Shown here: in pieces, positions 4,177 to 48,734 of the stretch
How the letters are laid out: every line of letters begins with the position of its first letter
How positions within the stretch are numbered: position 1 is the stretch's first letter
Assembly (NCBI GenBank): GCA_008373095.1
Contig: RQOP01000044.1
Location: forward strand, 2,379 to 66,378
Direction: 5' to 3'
Length of the DNA stretch: 64,000 bases
DNA from: SAR202 cluster bacterium
GTDB taxonomy: Bacteria; Chloroflexota; Dehalococcoidia; Lucifugimonadales; UBA826
The notes under the pieces: model-generated
The model's database searches: none
What the model was told of the DNA's origin: nothing
The model's input: only the letters and a program-made list of their open reading frames with translations
Made by a program: the position numbers and the translations under genes

Positions 4177-5928
4177 TTATTTATACTGATCAATACCAAC
4201 GGTAGCTGCCGTCGGGCCAGAAGGGAAAACTAAAGTTTTTGCCCTGTCAGCTCCCACAACCACAATGTCAATATTTGATGAGGAATGTAATAGAGGAACT
4301 TCAATAGCTAGGCGCTCTTCCTCAGTTTTGTCTTTTAGCCAGTTCCATCTTTCATCCACTCGAGCGTCGTTAATCGGCATATATTGGATCATTTTGCCTA
4401 AGCTAGTATTTGCATGACTGTGGATAAAGTCCTTTGCATCTTGTTTGGAAAAACCTTCACCGCCTACAGGTCCAGCTACATCAGGAGGCATGAATATTAG
4501 TCTTTGATGGCCTTCTGCGTGAGTCGCTCCTAAGGTTGTGTTACCAAAGGTTATTCCGTAGGCCAATGTTTTTAAAAGGCCGTCCGCTGAGGTGTTACCT
4601 TGGTCTTGAACATCTAGTTCACCGTCTGTAATAAATATCGAAACGGTACTATCTGTTTTTGAGAAACCTCTATCCTCCGAGTATGAAGGCCATGGGCTCA
4701 TTTCTTCGTTTTCTGCAACGCAATGAATAAATTTTCTGGTTGTCCCTATAGTGTCCATATCCATTTTGTTTGGATACCACATTCCAATGTTTTTTAGACA
4801 TAGATAGAAGGCTCTTCCTATAGTGATGTTAATTTCATTGTCCCGACCAGGACCTAGAGCAGATCCGGGGTTCAACCCAACTTTTTTTGCAATTGGCCCG
4901 TTCACCATCAGGATGGGGGCATGAGGGCTAGTTGACATTAGTAGCGACTTTCCGCCATGTGAGCCCATCTCGGAAAGGCATTTAACGGCAGCGATAATTA
5001 TTGGCATATGTTCTGCCTTGGCCCCAGCCATTGCGGCATTTATAGCAATTTTTTCTACTGTTGCTAATCCGAATCCGGGTGGCATATCACAGACTACGTG
5101 ATCTGCCGGAAGAGAAGTTCCTGAGATTAGTTCTCTAACCTTCTCCTCTGTCGGAGGATAGATTGGCAATGCATCTGACCAGTCTTTAAGGGTGAACTCT
5201 TTGTTCATTTTAAGTACCGCATCATACCGATCTTCGCCCTCAAACCGAATGACCGATTCTTGCTGTTCTATGACGGATACATCCTTTCCTTCTGAAGTTA
5301 ATGTCTGAATTAGGTCGTCAATAACCTCTTCAGTTTGACTGACACAAAGATCATCGGCTAGATTTCGATAAATTCTGGGAACGACCACAAATTGCAGGTC
5401 TGGCATACCAAAGGCTTTACTGCTCGCTTTGGCATCGTCAGTAAACCTACCTGACACAATTGGAACGGCGGGTTTTCCCATCTTTTCTATTTCTATCATG
5501 TCGTGGCACATCCACGACGCGCAGGTCCCTCAATCGGCAGTGGCCCCAATTACCACGTCACATTCCTCTGCTGCCTGCTTCACGATATGTGGAGGGGAAG
5601 GATAGTTGCCTCCAGTATAGAAATTTACAGAAACATTAGAAAATCTTTCCTGGATCATTTCACCGGCACGATTTAGTGCCAAATCACCACCATGGGTACC
5701 ACTCCATACTAAGCCAACTGTCGCTCCTTCTAAAGTGGATGGTCTTTGGTTGGGTTTGATGATATTCATCATCCCCCGTTGTTGAGCTACAGGGTTAAGA
5801 ACTGATAATAAATCCACGTAATACTCCTTACCTTCAATGCTTCTTTCATTTTCACTAAATAGCCAGCTGGTGTGTGCAAAATGTTGAATTTTCCGATTAT
5901 ACAGGAGAGCTAATTCTTTGAATAACAA
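4177..5928 (-). CDS. Candidate selenoprotein: UGSC-like domain (Sec at TGA 5530-5532) fused to a ~380-aa uncharacterised C-terminal domain
   Basis: Track ORFs 5530..5928 and 4177..5511 are in the same frame, separated only by TGA plus 6 sense codons. Read-through gives ...EECDVVIGATAD-U-GTCASWMCHDMIEIEKMGKPAVPIVSGRF.... A SECIS-like hairpin follows. The 5' end is uncertain (ATG at 5928, or Met-Met at 5772/5769). Confidence 0.65.
5500..5518 (-). promoter_or_regulatory. Candidate bacterial SECIS hairpin
   Basis: Minus-strand RNA GUCGUGG-AUGUG-CCACGAC: a perfect 7-bp stem with a 5-nt loop containing GU. It starts 11 nt after the in-frame UGA. The ATG used by the ORF caller (5511-5509) lies in the loop. 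Confidence 0.5.
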
Positions 5929-6619: not shown

Positions 6620-7636
6620 ATGAACAACGTACCAGTGCTGGACACATTTAAGAGGCCGCTCCGAGATTTGAGAATCTCGGTCACTGATCGGTGCAACTTT
6701 CGCTGTCCATATTGCATGCCAGCTGAAATTTTCGGCGATCGTTACCAGTTTCTACCCAGAGAAGACTTGCTAACCTTTGAAGAAATTACCCGAATCGTAA
6801 AAATTGCGGTTGGCTTGGGAGTTACAAAAGTGAGGATCACTGGCGGAGAGCCACTTGTTCGGCAAAATATAGAAGAATTGGTGGCCATGATTGCGGCTGT
6901 AGATGGCGTTTCTGACCTTGCTATGACTACAAATGCTTATCTACTATCCGGATATGCAGAAAAACTAAAAAATGCCGGGTTGAAACGCATAACGGTTAGC
7001 CTAGATTCATTGGAAGATGAAATTTTTCAGAAAATGAATGGGAGAGGATTCAGTACTGCCCGAGTTTTGGATGGTATAAGGGCTGCCAAAGAAGCAGGGT
7101 TACAGCCAATTAAAATTAACGCTGTGGTGCAGAAAGGCGTTAATGATGAAACGCTTGTCGGTTTAGCTGAATGGTGCAGGGATAACGGCCATACCCCTCG
7201 ATTTATCGAATACATGGATGTTGGCACACTGAACGACTGGAAACTTGAAGAGGTTTTGACAGCTGAAGAAATTGTTCAACTAATCGAGGAAAGATTTCCT
7301 GCTGATCCCGTAGGCCCAACTTACCCAGGAGAAGTTGCAAAAAGATATAGATATAGAGATGGAAATGGTGAATTTGGGATTATTTCTTCGGTTTCACAAC
7401 CATTTTGTGGAGACTGCACACGAATGCGCCTTTCTCCAGAAGGGAAATCTGTCACCTGTCTTTTTGCGGAAACCGGTACTGATTTAAGGGATAGTTTACG
7501 AGACGGATCAACCGATGATGAAATCAAAAAAGCCATCATTGGAATTTGGGGCTCCAGAAAGGATCGATATTCTGAACAAAGATCTGAAGAGACGGTAAAA
7601 AGGAAAAAAGTTGAGATGTATCACATTGGCGGTTAA
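6620..7636 (+). CDS. moaA: GTP 3',8-cyclase MoaA (radical SAM, molybdenum cofactor biosynthesis)
   Basis: 338 aa. LRISVTDRCNFRCPYCMP radical-SAM cluster motif, C-terminal CGDCTRMRLSPEGK second-cluster region, typical length. Confidence 0.9.
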   Translation: MNNVPVLDTFKRPLRDLRISVTDRCNFRCPYCMPAEIFGDRYQFLPREDLLTFEEITRIVKIAVGLGVTKVRITGGEPLVRQNIEELVAMIAAVDGVSDLAMTTNAYLLSGYAEKLKNAGLKRITVSLDSLEDEIFQKMNGRGFSTARVLDGIRAAKEAGLQPIKINAVVQKGVNDETLVGLAEWCRDNGHTPRFIEYMDVGTLNDWKLEEVLTAEEIVQLIEERFPADPVGPTYPGEVAKRYRYRDGNGEFGIISSVSQPFCGDCTRMRLSPEGKSVTCLFAETGTDLRDSLRDGSTDDEIKKAIIGIWGSRKDRYSEQRSEETVKRKKVEMYHIGG

Positions 7637-8054
7637 TGATTCAGTGAAGGAGCCTACCGTAGTGCTATACACCGATGGAGCATGTCTCGGCAATCCTGGT
7701 CCAGGAGGCTGGGGTGCCGTCGTTTTTGACGAGGGAGAAAAAAAACTTCTTCATGGGGGAGAAAACAACACCACCAATAATAGAATGGAAATTACAGCTG
7801 TAATCGAGGCTTTGAAGACTCTTCGGACTGGTATTAATGTCAAGATTTATTCTGATTCAACATACGTCATCAATACTATGACGAAAAATTGGAAAAGAAA
7901 GAAAAATCAAGATTTATGGATCTTGTTGGATAGTGAGGCAGCGCTTCGAAATCTTGAGTGGGAATGGGTGAAAGGTCATTCTGGAGATGAATTCAATGAA
8001 GAGGCTGATCGCTTGGCTTATCAAGAAGCTTCAATGGTAGCAAAGGAAAAATAG
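7611..8054 (+). CDS. rnhA: Ribonuclease HI
   Basis: LYTDGACLGNPGPGGWGAV, NNRMEITAVIEAL, IYSDSTYVIN, WVKGHSGDEFNEEADRLA. An alternative GTG start at 7644 would remove the overlap with moaA. Confidence 0.85.
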   Translation: MRCITLAVNDSVKEPTVVLYTDGACLGNPGPGGWGAVVFDEGEKKLLHGGENNTTNNRMEITAVIEALKTLRTGINVKIYSDSTYVINTMTKNWKRKKNQDLWILLDSEAALRNLEWEWVKGHSGDEFNEEADRLAYQEASMVAKEK

Positions 8055-8085
8055 GAACAGAGTATTTGCTCAACAGGAGGCTATC

Positions 8086-8592
8086 GTGTCCAAAGCAAAA
8101 AAATTAACCCATGTGGATGAAAGCGGAGATGCCAATATGGTTGATGTAGGTGCAAAACCAATCTCCGAGAGAATCGCTGAGGCGAAGGCTGAAGTGCAGA
8201 TGAACCCTGAAACTCTCGCACTAATTCTGACCAATTCTTTTGAGAAGGGCGATGTGGTATCCACAGCACGTATTGCTGGAATAATGGCTGCCAAGGATAC
8301 CTCTAGATTAATTCCTTTGTGTCACCCCTTACCCATTAGCCAAATAAAGATTGATATTGCCTTAGATGAAGAAAATAGCTGTGTTCATATCACAACCATG
8401 GTCAAAACGAATGCTAAAACTGGAGTTGAGATGGAAGCGTTGACAGGGGCATCGGTAGCAGCTCTTACCGTTTACGATATGTGTAAAGCTGTAGACAGAA
8501 GTATGAATTTCAGGGTCTGGCTGGCCTCTAAGTCAGGCGGGCGATCGGGTAATTTTGTTTTCGATGCTCCCCCTAGGGAATCCACCACTTAG
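8086..8592 (+). CDS. moaC: Cyclic pyranopterin monophosphate synthase MoaC
   Basis: LTHVDESGDANMVDVGAKPISERIAEA, LIPLCHPLP and TGVEMEALTGASVAALTVYDMCKAVD are MoaC-typical. Confidence 0.9.
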   Translation: MSKAKKLTHVDESGDANMVDVGAKPISERIAEAKAEVQMNPETLALILTNSFEKGDVVSTARIAGIMAAKDTSRLIPLCHPLPISQIKIDIALDEENSCVHITTMVKTNAKTGVEMEALTGASVAALTVYDMCKAVDRSMNFRVWLASKSGGRSGNFVFDAPPRESTT

Positions 8593-11197: not shown

Positions 11198-11363
11198 ATA
11201 CTTGGATTATGCTTCAAAATTTGGGTCGATTTCATGCTTAGATTTGAAAAAATGTAGAGATGCGCTTCTTAAAGAGTTGCGTATTGTGGTAAAATTCGTT
11301 ACTTATGTTAGTTTGGGTGGGTAATTTAGCTCATCCTTTAGTTTAGAAGCAGGAAGAGAAGAA

Positions 11364-11615
11364 GTGAACATTTACGTTGGAAATATCTCGTATGGTACAA
11401 GCGAGGATGATTTAAGAGATTTATTCGCTAGGTACGGCGAGGTTAGTGCAGTCCGTGTTATAACAGACAGGGACACAGGTAGATCCAAAGGATTTGGATT
11501 CGTGGAAATGACCGATGATGAGCAAGCTAAGGAAGCTATAGCAGCCTTAGATAGCAATGACTTCATGGGTCGCGATCTTAGAGTTAATGAGGCGCGTCCT
11601 AGAGAGCCCAGATAG
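11364..11615 (+). CDS. RRM-type RNA-binding protein
   Basis: 83 aa. RNP-2 (IYVGNI) and RNP-1 (KGFGFVEM) motifs. GTG start. Confidence 0.85.
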   Translation: MNIYVGNISYGTSEDDLRDLFARYGEVSAVRVITDRDTGRSKGFGFVEMTDDEQAKEAIAALDSNDFMGRDLRVNEARPREPR

Positions 11616-11627
11616 GTTTTGTAACAA

Positions 11628-11660
11628 GGGAAGTCTCCCGTAGAACGGGGGCTTTCCTTT
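11628..11660 (+). terminator. Candidate intrinsic terminator after the RRM gene
   Basis: Imperfect hairpin GGGAAGUCUCCCG-UAGAA-CGGGGGCUUUCC followed by UUU, read by eye. The U-tract is short. Confidence 0.4.
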
Positions 11661-11751
11661 GACCAACATTCCCCACTCGATTACGAATTCCCCGTAAGGC
11701 TATTACCCTTTTTTAGGGAGATGGCTTCTGTAAAGTTATATTATTCAGGAG

Positions 11752-12816
11752 ATGTATAAGCAAATGAATGATGTTGATACCTCAGGCCTAAAAACGATTG
11801 GAACGGATCCATATGTTGGGGAGACACCACAAAATGCGTTAGGTAGCTGGTTGACTCCGAATTCCTTATTTTATGTGCGATCTCAGTTTGATTATCCAGA
11901 GATAGATGAAAATACGTGGGAATTAAAGGTAGCCTCATCTCTAGGAGATGAAATGGCTCTTAGTCTTGGTGATATAAAACAATTGCCCAAACACACAGTG
12001 ACGGTTACCTTGGAGTGTGCTGGTAATAACAGGGGTGATTTGAACCCTCCTGCCCCAGGGAATCAATTTAACAATGGTGCGGTTAGCAATGCTGTTTGGT
12101 CAGGAACTTCGTTAAAGTCTCTTTTGTCAAAAATAAATCTTGGTCAAGATGTTGTAGAAATACTATTCGAAGGTGCTGATGTTGGGTCGCCGGCAGCCGA
12201 TAAAAATGCTGAGCCTTACCTGCGAAGCTTGCCATTGGACTTAGCCCTACATGAAGACACTCTCCTAGCCTACGAAATGAATGGAGAAACTCTTCCTCTT
12301 GAGCATGGATACCCGATTCGCTTAATCATTCCTGGTTGGTATGGTATGGCCCATGTGAAGTGGGTTAATAAAATTTCAGCTATAACAACGCCATTTTCTG
12401 GATATTTCCAAGGTGAAAAATATGTGCTGAAGTATGAAGATGGTACTGAAAGACCAGTCCAAGAAATTCAAGTTAAATCTGCTATAACTTCACCAAGTGA
12501 CAACGCATCTTTGAAATGTTGTGAAACCTACAATGTTAGTGGTCAAGCTTGGGCTGGCAGGAACCAAATAAAGAAGGTAGAAGTTTCTGTAGATGGCGGA
12601 GAAATGTGGAATTCAGCACAGTTAATAGGCCCTTCAGAAAACTATGCCTGGCAGCAATGGACTTACACCTGGACACCAGATTCCTTAGGAGAGCATACTC
12701 TCCTATCAAGAGCAACAGATAGCAAGGGAAATGAACAACCTTTGGAATCTCGCTGGAATGAATTAGGCTATGCAGTCAATGGCTCAAAACCGGTGAAGGT
12801 GGTGGTATCTAGTTAA
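11752..12816 (+). CDS. Sulfite-oxidase-family molybdopterin oxidoreductase
   Basis: 354 aa. LECAGNNRG (Mo-ligand Cys region), GAVSNAVWSG, YPIRLIIPGWYGMAHVKWV, C-terminal Ig-like dimerisation region. No obvious signal peptide or haem domain. Confidence 0.8.
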   Translation: MYKQMNDVDTSGLKTIGTDPYVGETPQNALGSWLTPNSLFYVRSQFDYPEIDENTWELKVASSLGDEMALSLGDIKQLPKHTVTVTLECAGNNRGDLNPPAPGNQFNNGAVSNAVWSGTSLKSLLSKINLGQDVVEILFEGADVGSPAADKNAEPYLRSLPLDLALHEDTLLAYEMNGETLPLEHGYPIRLIIPGWYGMAHVKWVNKISAITTPFSGYFQGEKYVLKYEDGTERPVQEIQVKSAITSPSDNASLKCCETYNVSGQAWAGRNQIKKVEVSVDGGEMWNSAQLIGPSENYAWQQWTYTWTPDSLGEHTLLSRATDSKGNEQPLESRWNELGYAVNGSKPVKVVVSS

Positions 12817-12842
12817 AGGGTAAACTGCTTGCTTTTGGGGGT

Positions 12843-13415
12843 GTGAGATTGTCCTGGATAGAAGAAGATCCTAAGTATTCTGATATTGCGAACGTCATTA
12901 AATGCATGTCCATTAATGAAGAGGCTATGCATGCAGTATGGGACATGGGGCATAAAATCAGCTTCGGCTCTTCAGCGTTAACGAGAGCGCAAGAAGAAGT
13001 AATAGCTACGGTTGTTTCTTCTATTAATCATTGTAAGTATTGAACAGTATCTCACGGAGAGTATCTTCGTCAGGCTACGGAAGATCCCGAAATGGCATCT
13101 ATCGTGATGCAAGATTACGGGAATGCATCCTTAGATGATGAGACGCTTGCGATCGTCGAATACGTGGAAAAATTGACGAAAGATCCTTCAGAAATGACAG
13201 AAGAGGACATTGAAACTCTTAGAAATGTTGGATTATCAGATCGCCAAATTCTGTCTGTCGTTATGATAACGGCTATGTTTGCCTTCATGAATAGATTGGC
13301 AGACGGATTGGGAGTGCAAATAGAAGATGGAAAAGGCAGTTTTGTTAATTCCTGGCTTCAAACTTCCCAAGGGACATCATCTTGGTTACACCACCAACCA
13401 CAAGAGAGGATCTAA
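12843..13415 (+). CDS. Candidate selenoprotein: AhpD/carboxymuconolactone-decarboxylase-like peroxidase-related protein with C-x-x-U motif (Sec at TGA 13041-13043)
   Basis: Track ORFs 12843..13043 and 13092..13415 are in the same frame. Read-through gives ...LTRAQEEVIATVVSSINHCKY-U-TVSHGEYLRQA..., matching the family pattern S..N.C.YC...H with U at the second Cys. The combined 190 aa is a normal family length. Confidence 0.7.
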
Positions 13416-13419
13416 TTAT

Positions 13420-13614
13420 TTAGATTTGAATTGTGGCAGGATCAACTTTTTTTGACCGTATCCACTCATCAATATCGGATCTAAAAAATCTCCACTGGTG
13501 GCCCACTCTGTTTGCGGGTATATCACCAGATTTTAGCAACTTGTAGATAGTCATTCTATCTAGTTGCAAGTATTCTGCTAATTCTTTTGTAGTCATCAGA
13601 TCATTGTTTACCAC
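13420..13614 (-). CDS. Small helix-turn-helix DNA-binding protein (excisionase/MerR-like HTH)
   Basis: 64 aa. TTKELAEYLQLDRMTIYKLLKSGDIPANRVGHQWRFFRSDIDEWI is the excisionase-family HTH pattern. No integrase nearby. Confidence 0.7.
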   Translation of the reverse strand: MVNNDLMTTKELAEYLQLDRMTIYKLLKSGDIPANRVGHQWRFFRSDIDEWIRSKKVDPATIQI

Positions 13615-13752
13615 TGCTACAACCCCTCATAGTATTTTACAGCTATTGTATTAAACCAATATGACATAATTATTCATTGTTATTGTACGTAATTAACCTA
13701 ATTATGATAAGAATAATCAATGTGGTCTGTCAATCCGTTTGGGAATCATGAA

Positions 13753-15273
13753 TCATGATTCTAGAATAGAAGATCTTGGGGTAGTCAGGTGTGCGACTGA
13801 AGATAGAAATTGAAGGCCTGCCATCAAAATAAAAACAGAACGCATGCCTGTTATAAAGGCTTGTAATATTGGACTTCCGTCTCCACCTGTCATAACCTCT
13901 TCCACGTTTGAAGAAAATCCTGAGGCAATCATTGTTCCGCTAACAATCGCAGTTGCTATTGCAATGCCCGTGACGTTGCCTGAATTTCTGGATAGATTGA
14001 CTAATGCGGATGTGACCCCGTACCTGTTTCCGCTTGCAGAAGAAAATATTGCAGCACTATTAGGTGACATAAACATTCCCGATCCAGAACTCATAACCAC
14101 TATAGACAAAATGACATACCAAATTGGGGTGCTATCAGCCATAAAGGCCATAAGCAGTAAGCCGCATCCTGCTAATAACAAACCGAAAGTAGTAAAGGGC
14201 TTAGTGCCAAATTTGTCTGACAGATTACCCGTTAATGGACCTAAGATTATTCGACTTATTGCATTTGGAACCAGTATCCAAGAAATCTGAGCAGGAGTTA
14301 AACGCAAAGCGGCTTGTAGATAGAAAGTTATAAGAAAACGGAAAGATGTAACCCCTAAAAAGGAAAGATAGTTTGATCCTACTCCAACTGAAAATAAGCG
14401 ACTGCGAAATAAAGACAGATCGAGCATGGGTGATGATGTTTTTGACTCCCACCAGATAAAAGCAATCACCAGTGCGCCAAAAATTAGAAATCCTCCAACT
14501 ATCGGTGCAGAAGTCCAGCCAAGACCAGCTCCATTTGATAATGTTAGAAGGAATACCAATAGAGTTGAAGAAGATAAACCTGCCCCCAGCCAGTCGTAAC
14601 TTTTATCTTTTTGGTCAGCCCCAGTAAATCGGGACGGGTCGAGTAAAAGTAAAGTAAATAAGAAAGTGACCGTACATAACGGTAAATTAATCCAAAATAT
14701 CCAGTGCCAGCTTAGATATGTGACCAGAATACCGCCCAATATTGGCCCGATTATGCCACCTGTGCCAATTATACTTCCGTGAGCCCCCAAGCCCTTGCCT
14801 CGTTCGTCAGAAGGGAAGGTAGATGTCACCATTGCCATTCCATTGGCTTGGGTTAAAGCTGCACCGATGCCTTGGAAAACGCGGAAAGGAATCATCAAGA
14901 TAATTGGATGAGAGAAGCCAAAATAATTCGCAATCCAGGGAGAGCTACCTGAGAACAATGCCATGAGGCCAAAAAGAACAACACCTGTCAGATACATGGG
15001 TTTCCTTCCAATGATGTCTGATAGGCGTCCCATGGGTAATAGCATTGCACTGATAGTTAATGACTCTGCCAAAACTACCCATTGAATGGTGGTCAGCGAA
15101 ACATCGAATTCTCTGGCAATTGTAGGCAATGCGATGCTAATGCTACCGTGGTGAATTACGTTGGTAAGAGAACCTAAACCAATAGCTGCGAATACGAGCC
15201 ATTTGTAGTTGTGAGAAGAATATACGCTTTTGAGCATAACGAATATTGTACTCTCAGATAAACTTGCACGCAT
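13753..15273 (-). CDS. MFS transporter, DHA2 (14-TMS drug:H+ antiporter-like)
   Basis: 506 aa, many TM segments. MGRLSDIIGRKP loop 2-3 motif and FRVFQGIGAA motif. Confidence 0.85.
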   Translation of the reverse strand: MRASLSESTIFVMLKSVYSSHNYKWLVFAAIGLGSLTNVIHHGSISIALPTIAREFDVSLTTIQWVVLAESLTISAMLLPMGRLSDIIGRKPMYLTGVVLFGLMALFSGSSPWIANYFGFSHPIILMIPFRVFQGIGAALTQANGMAMVTSTFPSDERGKGLGAHGSIIGTGGIIGPILGGILVTYLSWHWIFWINLPLCTVTFLFTLLLLDPSRFTGADQKDKSYDWLGAGLSSSTLLVFLLTLSNGAGLGWTSAPIVGGFLIFGALVIAFIWWESKTSSPMLDLSLFRSRLFSVGVGSNYLSFLGVTSFRFLITFYLQAALRLTPAQISWILVPNAISRIILGPLTGNLSDKFGTKPFTTFGLLLAGCGLLLMAFMADSTPIWYVILSIVVMSSGSGMFMSPNSAAIFSSASGNRYGVTSALVNLSRNSGNVTGIAIATAIVSGTMIASGFSSNVEEVMTGGDGSPILQAFITGMRSVFILMAGLQFLSSVAHLTTPRSSILES

Positions 15274-48644: not shown

Positions 48645-48734
48645 TGGCGGAGGGTGTGGGATTCGAACCCACGATACCCGTTAGGATATGCCAGTTTTCA
48701 AGACTGGTGCATTCGTCCACTCTGCCAACCCTCC
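48645..48734 (-). tRNA. tRNA-Ser (anticodon UGA), type II with long variable arm, CCA encoded
   Basis: Folded by hand. Acceptor GGAGGGU/ACCCUCC, anticodon stem CCAGU/ACUGG with loop CU-UGA-AA, 19-nt variable arm, T-arm GUGGG-UUCGAAU-CCCAC, 3' GCCA. Confidence 0.85.

What the first reader, a model, noticed from the sequence alone, without database searches (positions are those of the whole stretch)
12843..13415. AhpD/CMD-like peroxidase-related protein with TGA at the second Cys of its CxxC motif (C-K-Y-U), a second candidate selenoprotein
Seen: ORF 12843..13043 ends ...EVIATVVSSINHCKY-TGA. I counted 16 sense codons from the TGA (13041-13043) to the ATG of ORF 13092..13415, all in the same frame with no stop. 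Read-through gives ...SSINHCKY-U-TVSHGEYLRQATEDPEMASIVMQDYGN..., 190 aa in total.

Knowledge: carboxymuconolactone-decarboxylase/AhpD-core 'peroxidase-related' proteins carry the redox motif S-x-x-N-x-C-x-Y-C-x-x-x-H. Here the TGA replaces exactly the second Cys, and the downstream His is retained. CxxU AhpD-like selenoproteins have been reported from marine metagenomes, to my recollection.

SECIS evidence is weaker than for the UGSC gene. There are two imperfect hairpins. One is 13047-13064 (GUAUCUC...GAGAGUAU with a bulged G). The other is 13065-13083 (CUUCGU-CAGGCU-ACGGAAG with a bulged G, starting 21 nt after the UGA).
Basis: partly seen in the sequence, partly recalled or inferred. Interest (0 to 1): 0.75.

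Follow-up and report, generated by a model that had tools for sequence, protein, structure and literature searches.

The report
AhpD-like selenoprotein gene, known family
This is one gene, not two: it encodes a small peroxidase-related redox protein whose in-frame TGA is read as selenocysteine, but this selenoprotein family has been known from ocean metagenomes since 2005, so the case is correct and ordinary.

Summary
Window 12843..13415 is a single reading frame with one TGA (13041-13043) inside ...SSINHCKY-TGA-TVSHG.... With Cys placed at the TGA, the protein matches TIGR01926 "peroxidase-related enzyme" (137 bits, cutoff 81.8) and solved AhpD-like structures (2oyo, 6k40; E 1e-30 to 1e-27). 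In those structures the second Cys of CxYC-xxx-H aligns exactly with the TGA.

The TGA is kept in 92 of 93 related loci at 47-92% protein identity, all marine and mostly SAR202/Dehalococcoidia. Substitutions after it are third-position, so translation continues.

It is a 17-nt hairpin at 13054-13070 (ACGGAGA-GUA-UCUUCGU), 10 nt after the UGA. It is 97% paired across 65 distinct sequences. Its apical pair is G-C, A-U or C-G and is never broken, and synonymous variation collapses over exactly these codons.

The true start is TTG 12849, giving 188 aa with Sec at residue 65.

No selA, selB, selD or tRNA-Sec was found in the window, so lineage-level Sec machinery rests on the literature and on a second split selenoprotein gene (UGSC family) at about 4177-5817.

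The family (AhpD-like, COG2128/TIGR01926, CxxU) is published. The verdict is supported, already known, and of low interest.

The parts
12837..12841 (+). Shine-Dalgarno-like GGGGG, 7 nt upstream of the TTG start
   Evidence: Sequence. Relatives carry GGAG, GGGAG or AGGAG at the same distance from their start codon.
12849..13415 (+). Complete coding sequence of the AhpD-like (TIGR01926) selenoprotein: 188 codons including Sec65, then a TAA stop at 13413-13415
   Evidence: Single frame. TIGR01926 137.4 bits against a cutoff of 81.8, and PF02627 CMD 38.4 bits. PDB 2oyo E 1.7e-30 and 6k40 E 1.6e-27. The start codon is homologous to ATG, TTG or GTG in 67 relatives.
13032..13034 (+). TGT, the first Cys of the C-K-Y-U redox motif
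   Evidence: Cys is invariant in alignment A3. The codon is TGC or TGT in 68 of 69 distinct relatives.
13041..13043 (+). In-frame TGA read as selenocysteine (residue 65), at the position of the second Cys of CxxC
   Evidence: TGA in 92 of 93 related loci, with TGG in one. It aligns to Cys in 2oyo and 6k40 and in P0082, P0130, P0162, P0186 and P0077. TGA is an ordinary stop for 11 of 58 long ORFs in the window.
13053..13055 (+). CAC, the His four residues after Sec (U-T-V-S-H), the conserved His of the AhpD motif
   Evidence: His is conserved in 9 of 10 sequences of A3. The codon is CAC in 68 of 69 distinct sequences.
13054..13070 (+). SECIS-type hairpin ACGGAGA-GUA-UCUUCGU: 7 bp, a 3-nt loop beginning with G, 10 nt after the UGA
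   Evidence: It is the minimum-free-energy structure (17-mer -5.5 kcal/mol, z -2.7). The helix is 97.4% paired in 65 distinct sequences. The apical pair is GC:35, AU:25, CG:5 and never unpaired. RNAalifold recovers 6 of the 7 pairs, all but the basal one. Third-position entropy is 0.1-0.7 bits at five of codons +4 to +9, and the sixth (+7) carries the covarying base, against 1.5-1.9 bits at most other fourfold- and sixfold-degenerate codons.
11752..12816 (+). Upstream gene on the same strand, 32 nt away: a sulfite-oxidase-family molybdoenzyme (Oxidored_molyb + Mo-co_dimer). It is probably co-transcribed.
   Evidence: ORF. Pfam families of the syntenic gene in L001-L006 and L095-L097. No terminator-like site between the two genes. 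Co-transcription is inferred.
13420..13614 (-). Convergent downstream gene encoding a small HTH_17 DNA-binding protein. It is the neighbour kept in every locus of the window's own clade that I examined.

Best explanation
Window 12849..13415 (+) is one gene for a 188-residue AhpD-like thiol/selenol oxidoreductase (CMD/AhpD fold, TIGR01926, COG2128).

Its codon 65 is UGA, decoded as selenocysteine. A 17-nt hairpin 10 nt downstream (13054-13070, inside the coding sequence) acts as the bacterial SECIS. By analogy with other bacteria, it recruits SelB-GTP-Sec-tRNA(Sec) to the ribosome at the UGA.

Sec takes the place of the second residue of the C-x-x-C-x-x-x-H active site. In M. tuberculosis AhpD that residue is the nucleophilic Cys (my own knowledge of that enzyme, not tested here). 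The protein would therefore cycle between a selenol/thiol and a selenenylsulfide with Cys62. It would either reduce peroxides directly or pass electrons to a peroxiredoxin-type or other oxidised partner.

Shown here: one frame, family membership across the TGA, Cys at the aligned column in homologs, conservation of the TGA, coding-type evolution after it, and a conserved covarying hairpin with suppressed synonymous change.

Inferred: actual Sec insertion, SelB binding, the chemistry, and the physiological substrate.
For: - **Single frame and motif:**
- **Family match across the TGA:** TIGR01926 137.4 bits against a cutoff of 81.8, over residues 5-160. PDB 2oyo, 6k40, 3c1l and 2pfx match at E 1e-30 to 1e-26, with ...N-R-C-x-Y-C-A-V-S-H-G aligned to N-H-C-K-Y-[TGA]-T-V-S-H-G.
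- **TGA conservation:** TGA in 92 of 93 loci at 47-92% protein identity. Nearly all database homologs are C-terminal fragments of about 107-120 aa that begin just after the TGA.
- **Coding after the TGA:** substitutions are synonymous third-position changes.
- **Hairpin 13054-13070:** 97.4% paired, with three Watson-Crick pair types at the apical pair. This includes a synonymous covariation: Phe is UUU when its partner is A and UUC when its partner is G.
- **Codon choice in the hairpin:** Gly is GGA or GGG only, Leu is CUC or CUU only, Arg is CGU or CGC only. The same amino acids elsewhere in the gene use 4-6 codons.
- **Negative control:** Gly-form relatives with the same HGGFLR peptide but no UGA have lost the hairpin.
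- **TGA is a normal stop in this genome:** 11 of 58 long ORFs end with it.
- **Second split gene:** a UGSC-family gene with its own hairpin 11 nt after its TGA lies in the same window.
- **Literature:** AhpD-like CxxU is an established selenoprotein family (PMC1088965, PMC2398784, PMC13188914). Dehalococcoidia MAGs rank among the most selenoprotein-rich bacteria (PMC13326102). In D. radiodurans the homolog DR1765 protects against H2O2 and needs its CxxC (Zhao et al. 2020, as summarised in PMC8945050).
Against: - No selA, selB, selD or tRNA-Sec was found in the 64-kb window. The only tRNA is tRNA-Ser(UGA) at 48645-48734. Nineteen of the largest ORFs were scanned with no hit to a Sec-pathway family. 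I could not examine the rest of the genome.
- Folding energy alone is unremarkable: z -0.32 for 76 nt and z -1.6 for 40 nt.
- Covariation rests on one pair, although it has three pair types. The outer 3-bp helix is only 69% paired.
- One MAG (L009) has U instead of G as the first loop base.
- One short contig (L007) has TGG at the site.
- No experimental evidence of Se incorporation exists for this protein.
Confidence: 0.92

Rival explanations
1. The gene is a pseudogene, or the TGA is a sequencing or assembly error in an ordinary Cys-type (TGT/TGC) AhpD-like gene.
For: TGA is one substitution away from TGT or TGC. Gene callers split the gene into fragments of 66 and 107 aa.
Against: The same TGA occurs in 92 of 93 independently assembled loci spanning 47-92% protein identity. 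Both halves remain under purifying selection, with synonymous-type change. A dedicated hairpin is conserved downstream. No Cys form was seen among those 93 loci.
Confidence: 0.01
2. There are two separate small genes: a 66-aa N-terminal peptide ending at the TGA, and a 107-aa protein starting at ATG 13092. The 48 nt between them is a non-coding spacer.
For: An ATG is present at 13092, and public annotations call the 107-aa ORF.
Against: The 16 spacer codons encode TVSHGEYLRQATEDPE. This peptide is part of the AhpD core, aligns to solved structures, and carries the catalytic His. Its substitutions are third-position. In relatives at 47-52% identity, gene callers choose a different start, the ATG of T-M-[SA]-H-G two codons after the TGA, so ATG 13092 is not a conserved start. 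One AhpD/CMD domain spans both halves.
Confidence: 0.02
3. The UGA is read through without selenium. Either a near-cognate tRNA inserts Trp or Cys, or the genetic code is reassigned (UGA = Trp or Gly), with the hairpin acting only as a read-through stimulator.
For: Sec machinery was not found in the window. One relative has TGG at the site, and a sister group has Gly codons there.
Against: TGA ends 11 of 58 long ORFs in the window, so the code is not reassigned. The site is the redox-active Cys position, where Trp or Gly would abolish the CxxC chemistry while Sec preserves it. The hairpin matches the bacterial SECIS pattern as I know it: 17 nt, G first in the loop, and UGA 20 nt from the loop. 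A second UxxC-type split gene of a recognised selenoprotein family lies in the same window. The class Dehalococcoidia contains Sec-rich genomes (PMC13326102).
Confidence: 0.05

Closest known systems
AhpD-like selenoprotein family, CxxU (called 'AhpD-like protein' in Sargasso Sea 2005, 'AhpD-like 1, COG2128' in GOS 2008, and 'AhpD-like protein, TIGR01926, CxxU' in the 2026 review)
   Same: It has the same domain model: TIGR01926 scores above its cutoff, and a close homolog carries the label COG2128 (P0003). It has the same CxxU motif with Sec at the second position, comes from the same marine habitat, and has a SECIS hairpin just downstream of the UGA inside the coding sequence. GOS counted 299 Sec forms and 902 Cys forms (PMC2398784).
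   Different: Nothing essential differs. What this work adds is the assignment to SAR202/Dehalococcoidia MAGs, the exact 17-nt hairpin with its covariation, the TTG start, and sister forms with Gly at the Sec site.
Cys-containing TIGR01926 proteins with solved structures: 2oyo, 6k40 (D. radiodurans DR1765 AhpD-like), 3c1l, 2pfx
   Same: The match runs nearly full length, over 146-157 residues, at E 1e-30 to 1e-26. The active-site context N-x-C-x-Y-[C/U]-x-V-S-H-G is identical. DR1765 contributes to H2O2 resistance and needs its CxxC (PMC8945050, citing Zhao et al. 2020).
   Different: Those proteins have Cys where this one has UGA/Sec, and they have no SECIS. This protein lacks about 25 N-terminal residues present in the PDB chains, and it has a C-terminal tail, SWLHHQPQERI, conserved only within its own clade.
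Mycobacterium tuberculosis AhpD (TIGR00777) and the AhpC/AhpD system
   Same: It shares the CMD/AhpD core domain and the C-x-x-C-x-x-x-H signature (TIGR00778 domain 37.8 bits against a cutoff of 27.8). From my own knowledge, the second Cys is the nucleophile in MtAhpD, and that is the position Sec occupies here.
   Different: It is not a member: TIGR00777 scores 20.6 bits against a cutoff of 191.95. No ahpC or lipoamide-system gene lies beside it. The neighbours are a molybdoenzyme, an HTH_17 protein, an MFS transporter and a TPP enzyme.
NF041238 AhpD_rel_CFYUT alkylhydroperoxidase-related (seleno)protein ('hypothetical protein 1' of the Sargasso Sea)
   Same: It has a CxxU motif followed by T (C-F-Y-U-T there, C-K-Y-U-T here) and a homologous C-terminal AhpD-like domain (73 bits, profile positions 175-341).
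   Different: The score is far below the cutoff (73 against 175). That family is about 357 residues with an extra N-terminal half that is absent here.
Bacterial SECIS element (the E. coli fdhF type and the bSECISearch consensus)
   Same: It is a stem-loop inside the coding sequence just 3' of the UGA. It has G at the first loop position and 20 nt from the U of UGA to the loop. It is a 17-nt hairpin 10 nt from the UGA, which resembles the minimal E. coli element as I recall it (17 nt, placed 11 nt from the UGA).
   Different: The loop is only 3 nt (GUA, GUU or GGC), and no bulged U is evident. Rfam reported no match to this region at gathering thresholds. SelB binding is untested.

Membership tests
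TIGR01926 peroxidase-related enzyme (AhpD-like, COG2128) | Whole-protein HMM score above the curated cutoff | tested here: met
   137.4 bits against a cutoff of 81.8, with residues 5-160 aligned to profile positions 19-175 of 178 and Cys substituted at the TGA.
TIGR01926 peroxidase-related enzyme (AhpD-like, COG2128) | AhpD-core redox motif C-x-x-C-x-x-x-H within the CMD domain | tested here: met
   The motif C-K-Y-[UGA]-T-V-S-H aligns column for column with C-L-Y-C-A-V-S-H of 2oyo and C-V-Y-C-A-V-S-H of 6k40. PF02627 scores 38.4 bits (cutoff 23) and TIGR00778 scores 37.8 bits (cutoff 27.8).
TIGR01926 peroxidase-related enzyme (AhpD-like, COG2128) | All-helical AhpD/CMD fold | not tested
   No structure was predicted. 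The fold is inferred from sequence matches at E 1e-30 to 1e-17 to five solved AhpD-like chains.
Bacterial selenoprotein (AhpD-like CxxU family) | In-frame UGA conserved among orthologs and aligned to Cys in homologs | tested here: met
   TGA in 92 of 93 loci. Cys at the column in 2oyo, 6k40, P0082, P0130, P0162, P0186 and P0077.
Bacterial selenoprotein (AhpD-like CxxU family) | Coding-type conservation continues 3' of the UGA | tested here: met
   The peptide TVSHGEYLRQATEDPEMASIVMQDYG is conserved, with mostly third-position nucleotide changes.
Bacterial selenoprotein (AhpD-like CxxU family) | SECIS stem-loop shortly downstream of the UGA, with G in the apical loop | tested here: met
   The hairpin at 13054-13070 is 97.4% paired with a covarying apical pair. 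The first loop base is G in 64 of 65 distinct sequences. bSECISearch itself was not available.
Bacterial selenoprotein (AhpD-like CxxU family) | Genome encodes SelA, SelB, SelD and tRNA-Sec | tested here: inconclusive
   None was found in the 64-kb window: tRNA scan and Rfam, and 19 large ORFs. Class-level support comes from the literature only (PMC13326102).
Bacterial selenoprotein (AhpD-like CxxU family) | Selenium actually incorporated at the UGA | not testable with these tools
   This needs 75Se labelling or mass spectrometry.
TIGR00777 AhpD (M. tuberculosis type) | HMM score above the cutoff | tested here: not met
   20.6 bits against a cutoff of 191.95.
NF041238 AhpD_rel_CFYUT (seleno)protein | HMM score above the cutoff and a two-domain length of about 357 aa | tested here: not met
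   73 bits against a cutoff of 175. Only the C-terminal half of the profile (positions 175-341) is matched, and the protein is 188 aa.

The most novel reading that the evidence does not exclude
In SAR202 the AhpD-like selenoprotein may not be a general peroxide-defence enzyme. It may instead be a dedicated selenol redox partner of whichever oxidoreductase is encoded directly upstream. That is a sulfite-oxidase-family molybdoenzyme in the window's clade (32-nt gap, no terminator). In 4 of the 6 loci tested in the 47-52% identity clade it is a PNPOx-like flavoprotein. The compact 17-nt, triloop SECIS would be a lineage-specific minimal element. The evidence does not exclude this, but only adjacency supports it. 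That adjacency is interrupted by an 803-aa gene in L101.
Probability: 0.12. Interest if true: 0.4.

Novelty: already known. Interest (0 to 1): 0.2.

Why it matters
The practical value is annotation. Public gene calls split this abundant marine gene into fragments of 66 and 107 aa. The exact 107-aa fragment is indexed in 446 blocks of the assembly collection. The correct product is a 188-aa selenoprotein.

The result also documents Sec use in a SAR202/Dehalococcoidia genome segment that carries two selenoprotein genes, and it supplies a clean, covariation-supported minimal SECIS for this family.

It does not change any concept. AhpD-like CxxU selenoproteins were described in 2005 and ranked fourth in abundance in the GOS selenoproteome.

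Tried and rejected
I tested 13047-13064 and 13065-13083 on the 69-sequence alignment. They are 67.9% and 47.7% paired, with covariation no better than shuffles or slid controls, so I rejected both.
- **Outer helix.** The 3-bp helix 13050-13052 with 13072-13074 is only 69% paired, so I do not claim it.
- **Second downstream hairpin.** The one in the 76-nt MFE fold (about 13076-13106) has its loop about 48 nt from the UGA, and its sequence varies among relatives. I did not pursue it.
- **Rfam.** At gathering thresholds it finds nothing in the window apart from a tRNA.
- **Sec machinery.** ARAGORN finds only tRNA-Ser(UGA). Scans of 19 large ORFs found no selA, selB or selD.
- **Exhaustive search with the joined protein.** I used the 123-aa post-TGA part instead.
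- **Gly or Trp at the site as a translation-table artefact.** I suspected that 'G' or 'W' in some database proteins came from gene calls using code 25 or code 4. This is wrong where I could check: L098 and L104 have real GGC and GGG codons, and L007 has a real TGG. P0087 (W) could not be checked because no DNA was available.
- **SAR202 literature.** Searches for SAR202 with selenoprotein or selenocysteine gave nothing relevant.
- **Promoter and terminator scan.** The scan of 11300-13800 gave counts at the shuffle expectation.

Full report
**Observation**

Window 12843..13415 (+) is one reading frame with a single internal stop, TGA at 13041-13043. It lies in the context ...EVIATVVSSINHCKY-TGA-TVSHGEYLRQATEDPEMASIVMQDYG.... 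The ORF list shows the two halves as 12843..13043 and 13092..13415 in the same frame.

**What the protein is**

I placed Cys at the TGA and scanned the joined protein.
- It scores 137.4 bits against TIGR01926 "peroxidase-related enzyme" (cutoff 81.8), over residues 5-160, so the match runs straight across the TGA.
- It also passes PF02627 (CMD) and TIGR00778 (AhpD core domain).
- It fails TIGR00777 (true AhpD; 20.6 against 191.95) and NF041238 (AhpD_rel_CFYUT selenoprotein; 73 against 175).

Against solved structures it matches 2oyo, 6k40 (Deinococcus radiodurans DR1765 AhpD-like), 3c1l and 2pfx at E 1e-30 to 1e-26. The alignment sets N-R-C-L-Y-C-A-V-S-H-G of the structures against N-H-C-K-Y-[TGA]-T-V-S-H-G. 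The TGA therefore sits exactly on the second Cys of C-x-x-C-x-x-x-H.

More distant full-length homologs also have CxxC at that column: P0082, P0130, P0162, P0186 and P0077.

**Is the TGA real and conserved?**

A protein search returned almost only 107-aa C-terminal fragments, from SAR202, Dehalococcoidia and TARA sources. This is what gene callers produce when they stop at the TGA.

I fetched the DNA of 93 related loci that cover the site:
- 13 came from look-ups and species-representative genomes, all named SAR202, Dehalococcoidia or Chloroflexota MAGs.
- 80 came from metagenomes, at 47-92% protein identity.

TGA occupies the site in 92 of them, and one 1.1-kb contig (L007) has TGG. No Cys form occurs within this range.

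TGA is not reassigned in this genome. It terminates 11 of 58 long ORFs in the window.

**Does translation continue?**

In the closer relatives, the residues after the TGA are identical or nearly so, while their codons differ at third positions. A per-codon table over 69 distinct sequences shows the usual coding pattern throughout: low amino-acid entropy and high third-position entropy. This rules out the pseudogene reading, the two-gene reading and the non-coding-spacer reading.

**The SECIS**

The alignment of 60 nt around the TGA (A2, 69 sequences) shows a block that is nearly invariant at the nucleotide level: C-ACGGAG-N-GUN-N-CUCCGU. In the window this is 13054-13070, ACGGAGA-GUA-UCUUCGU. 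It is a 7-bp stem with a 3-nt loop, 10 nt after the UGA and 20 nt from the U of UGA to the loop.

The evidence that it is a selected RNA structure:
- It is the MFE structure in the window and in distant relatives.
- On A2 the helix is 97.4% paired.
- The apical pair is G-C in 35 distinct sequences, A-U in 25 and C-G in 5, and is never unpaired. Two other pairs switch between G-C/G-U and A-U/G-U.
- RNAalifold independently predicts 6 of its 7 pairs, omitting only the basal A-U pair.

The covariation includes a purely synonymous case. The Phe codon is UUU when its pairing partner is A and UUC when the partner is G.

Synonymous variation collapses over these codons and only there:

| Residue | Codons in the hairpin | Same residue elsewhere in the gene |
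|---|---|---|
| His | CAC 68 of 69 | not compared |
| Gly | GGA 64, GGG 5 | Gly +88: GGC 21, GGA 20, GGG 17, GGT 11 |
| Leu | CUC 59, CUU 10 | Leu +70 uses six codons |
| Arg | CGU 57, CGC 12 | Arg +84 uses at least five codons |

As a negative control, sister proteins with a real Gly codon at the Sec site but the same HGGFLR peptide have a decayed hairpin. L098 reads CAC GGC GGA TTT CTA CGC, and L104 reads ...CTG CGC.

Across relatives they are only 67.9% and 47.7% paired and do not exceed the controls, so they are not the element.

Folding energy alone would not have been convincing: z -0.3 to -2.7, depending on the length folded. The case rests on the comparative evidence.

**Gene boundaries and context**

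The start is TTG 12849, not GTG 12843. The homologous codon is ATG in 49, TTG in 16 and GTG in 2 distinct relatives. It is preceded by GGAG-like motifs, and in several relatives by a stop codon. The product is 188 residues with Sec at position 65.

The gene lies 32 nt downstream of a sulfite-oxidase-family molybdoenzyme gene (11752-12816), with no terminator-like site between them. It converges on a small HTH_17 gene (13420-13614). An MFS transporter and a TPP enzyme follow. This order is shared with SAR202 contigs.

The adjacency is not universal:
- L101 has an 803-aa gene inserted between the molybdoenzyme gene and this gene.
- In the 47-52% identity clade the upstream gene is a PNPOx-like flavoprotein in 4 of 6 loci tested.

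**Sec machinery**

The window has no tRNA-Sec (the only tRNA is tRNA-Ser(UGA) at 48645-48734), and none of 19 large ORFs scanned matches a selA, selB or selD model. A 64-kb window cannot settle this question.

Indirect support comes from two sources:
- A second split gene in the same window (about 4177-5817, minus strand; TGA 5530-5532; motif ATAD-U-GTC) matches the UGSC (seleno)protein family. It has its own 7-bp hairpin 11 nt after the UGA.
- BSepDB lists Dehalococcoidia MAGs with 46-49 selenoproteins among Sec-utilising bacteria (PMC13326102).

**Mechanism**

Sequence evidence shows that the UGA at codon 65 is maintained by selection, that it sits at the redox Cys position, and that a conserved hairpin follows it.

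Three steps are inferred from established bacterial Sec biology:
1. The hairpin binds SelB carrying Sec-tRNA(Sec), and Sec is inserted.
2. Sec65 acts as the nucleophile of a Cys62-x-x-Sec65 centre, with His69 assisting. This is by analogy with M. tuberculosis AhpD, where the second Cys is the nucleophile (my own knowledge), and with DR1765, whose CxxC is needed for H2O2 protection (PMC8945050).
3. The physiological oxidant and reductant are unknown. No ahpC or peroxiredoxin gene lies beside this gene.

**Comparison with what is known, and novelty**

AhpD-like proteins with CxxU were reported as a new selenoprotein family from the Sargasso Sea in 2005 (27 sequences, COG2128; PMC1088965). They were the fourth most abundant family in the GOS selenoproteome (AhpD-like 1: 299 Sec forms and 902 Cys homologs; PMC2398784). 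The 2026 review lists them as "AhpD-like protein, TIGR01926, CxxU" (PMC13188914). The UGSC family and its fusion to an extra domain are also in the GOS paper.

This locus meets every family criterion I could test. I therefore rate it as already known. The corrections concern the SECIS coordinates and the start codon.

**Verdict**

This is a genuine AhpD-like (TIGR01926) selenoprotein gene. Confidence is about 0.92. Interest is low (0.2) because the family, its motif and its marine abundance are all published.

Noticed in passing
window about 4177-5817 (-), TGA at 5530-5532: This is a second split gene with an in-frame TGA, in the motif ...IGATAD-U-GTCASW.... Its N-terminal domain matches NF041046 UGSC family (seleno)protein (97 bits, below the cutoff of 125). 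Both halves are tagged PF24696 UGSC in identical contigs. It is fused to a C-terminal domain of about 440 aa. A 7-bp hairpin, GUCGUGG-AUGUG-CCACGAC, starts 11 nt after the UGA (z -2.57). The gene is absent from the otherwise syntenic SAR202 contigs L001 and L002.
   Followed up: partly
L007:767-769: One 1.1-kb metagenome contig (52% identity) has TGG (Trp) at the Sec position while keeping the hairpin sequence intact. It may be a recent UGA-to-UGG change, a dead allele or an assembly error.
   Followed up: partly
L074, about 1602-1613: This contig has TGA at both redox positions (N-K-U-R-Y-U-T). Its near-twin L043 has TGC at the first position. It is either a UxxU variant or a single-base error, and only one contig shows it.
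   Followed up: no
L098:1001-1717 (in a 5.36-Mb contig), L104:149-793; also proteins P0076, P0083, P0100: A sister group at about 37-39% identity has a genuine Gly codon (GGC or GGG) at the Sec/Cys position, giving C-x-x-G. It keeps the HGGFLR peptide but has a decayed hairpin. This looks like loss of Sec through UGA-to-GGN change, with loss of the second redox residue. P0075 has Ala and P0094 has Asn at the same column.
   Followed up: partly
L052:734-1429, L063:954-1430, L075:904-1422, L084:855-1412: In the 47-52% identity clade, a PNPOx_N (FMN-binding split-barrel) gene lies directly upstream of the AhpD-like selenoprotein gene, on the same strand, in 4 of 6 loci tested. It could be a redox partner.
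   Followed up: partly
window 11752-12816 and 6620-8592: The selenoprotein gene follows a sulfite-oxidase-family molybdoenzyme gene by 32 nt, and molybdenum-cofactor genes (MoaA-like radical SAM, MoaC) lie a few kb upstream. The order is shared with SAR202 contigs. No functional link was tested.
   Followed up: no
window 13092-13412: The exact 107-aa C-terminal fragment encoded here is indexed in 446 blocks of the public assembly collection, on contigs of up to 50-200 kb. The organism is therefore very common in sequenced marine samples, and the gene is mis-called as a fragment throughout.
   Followed up: no
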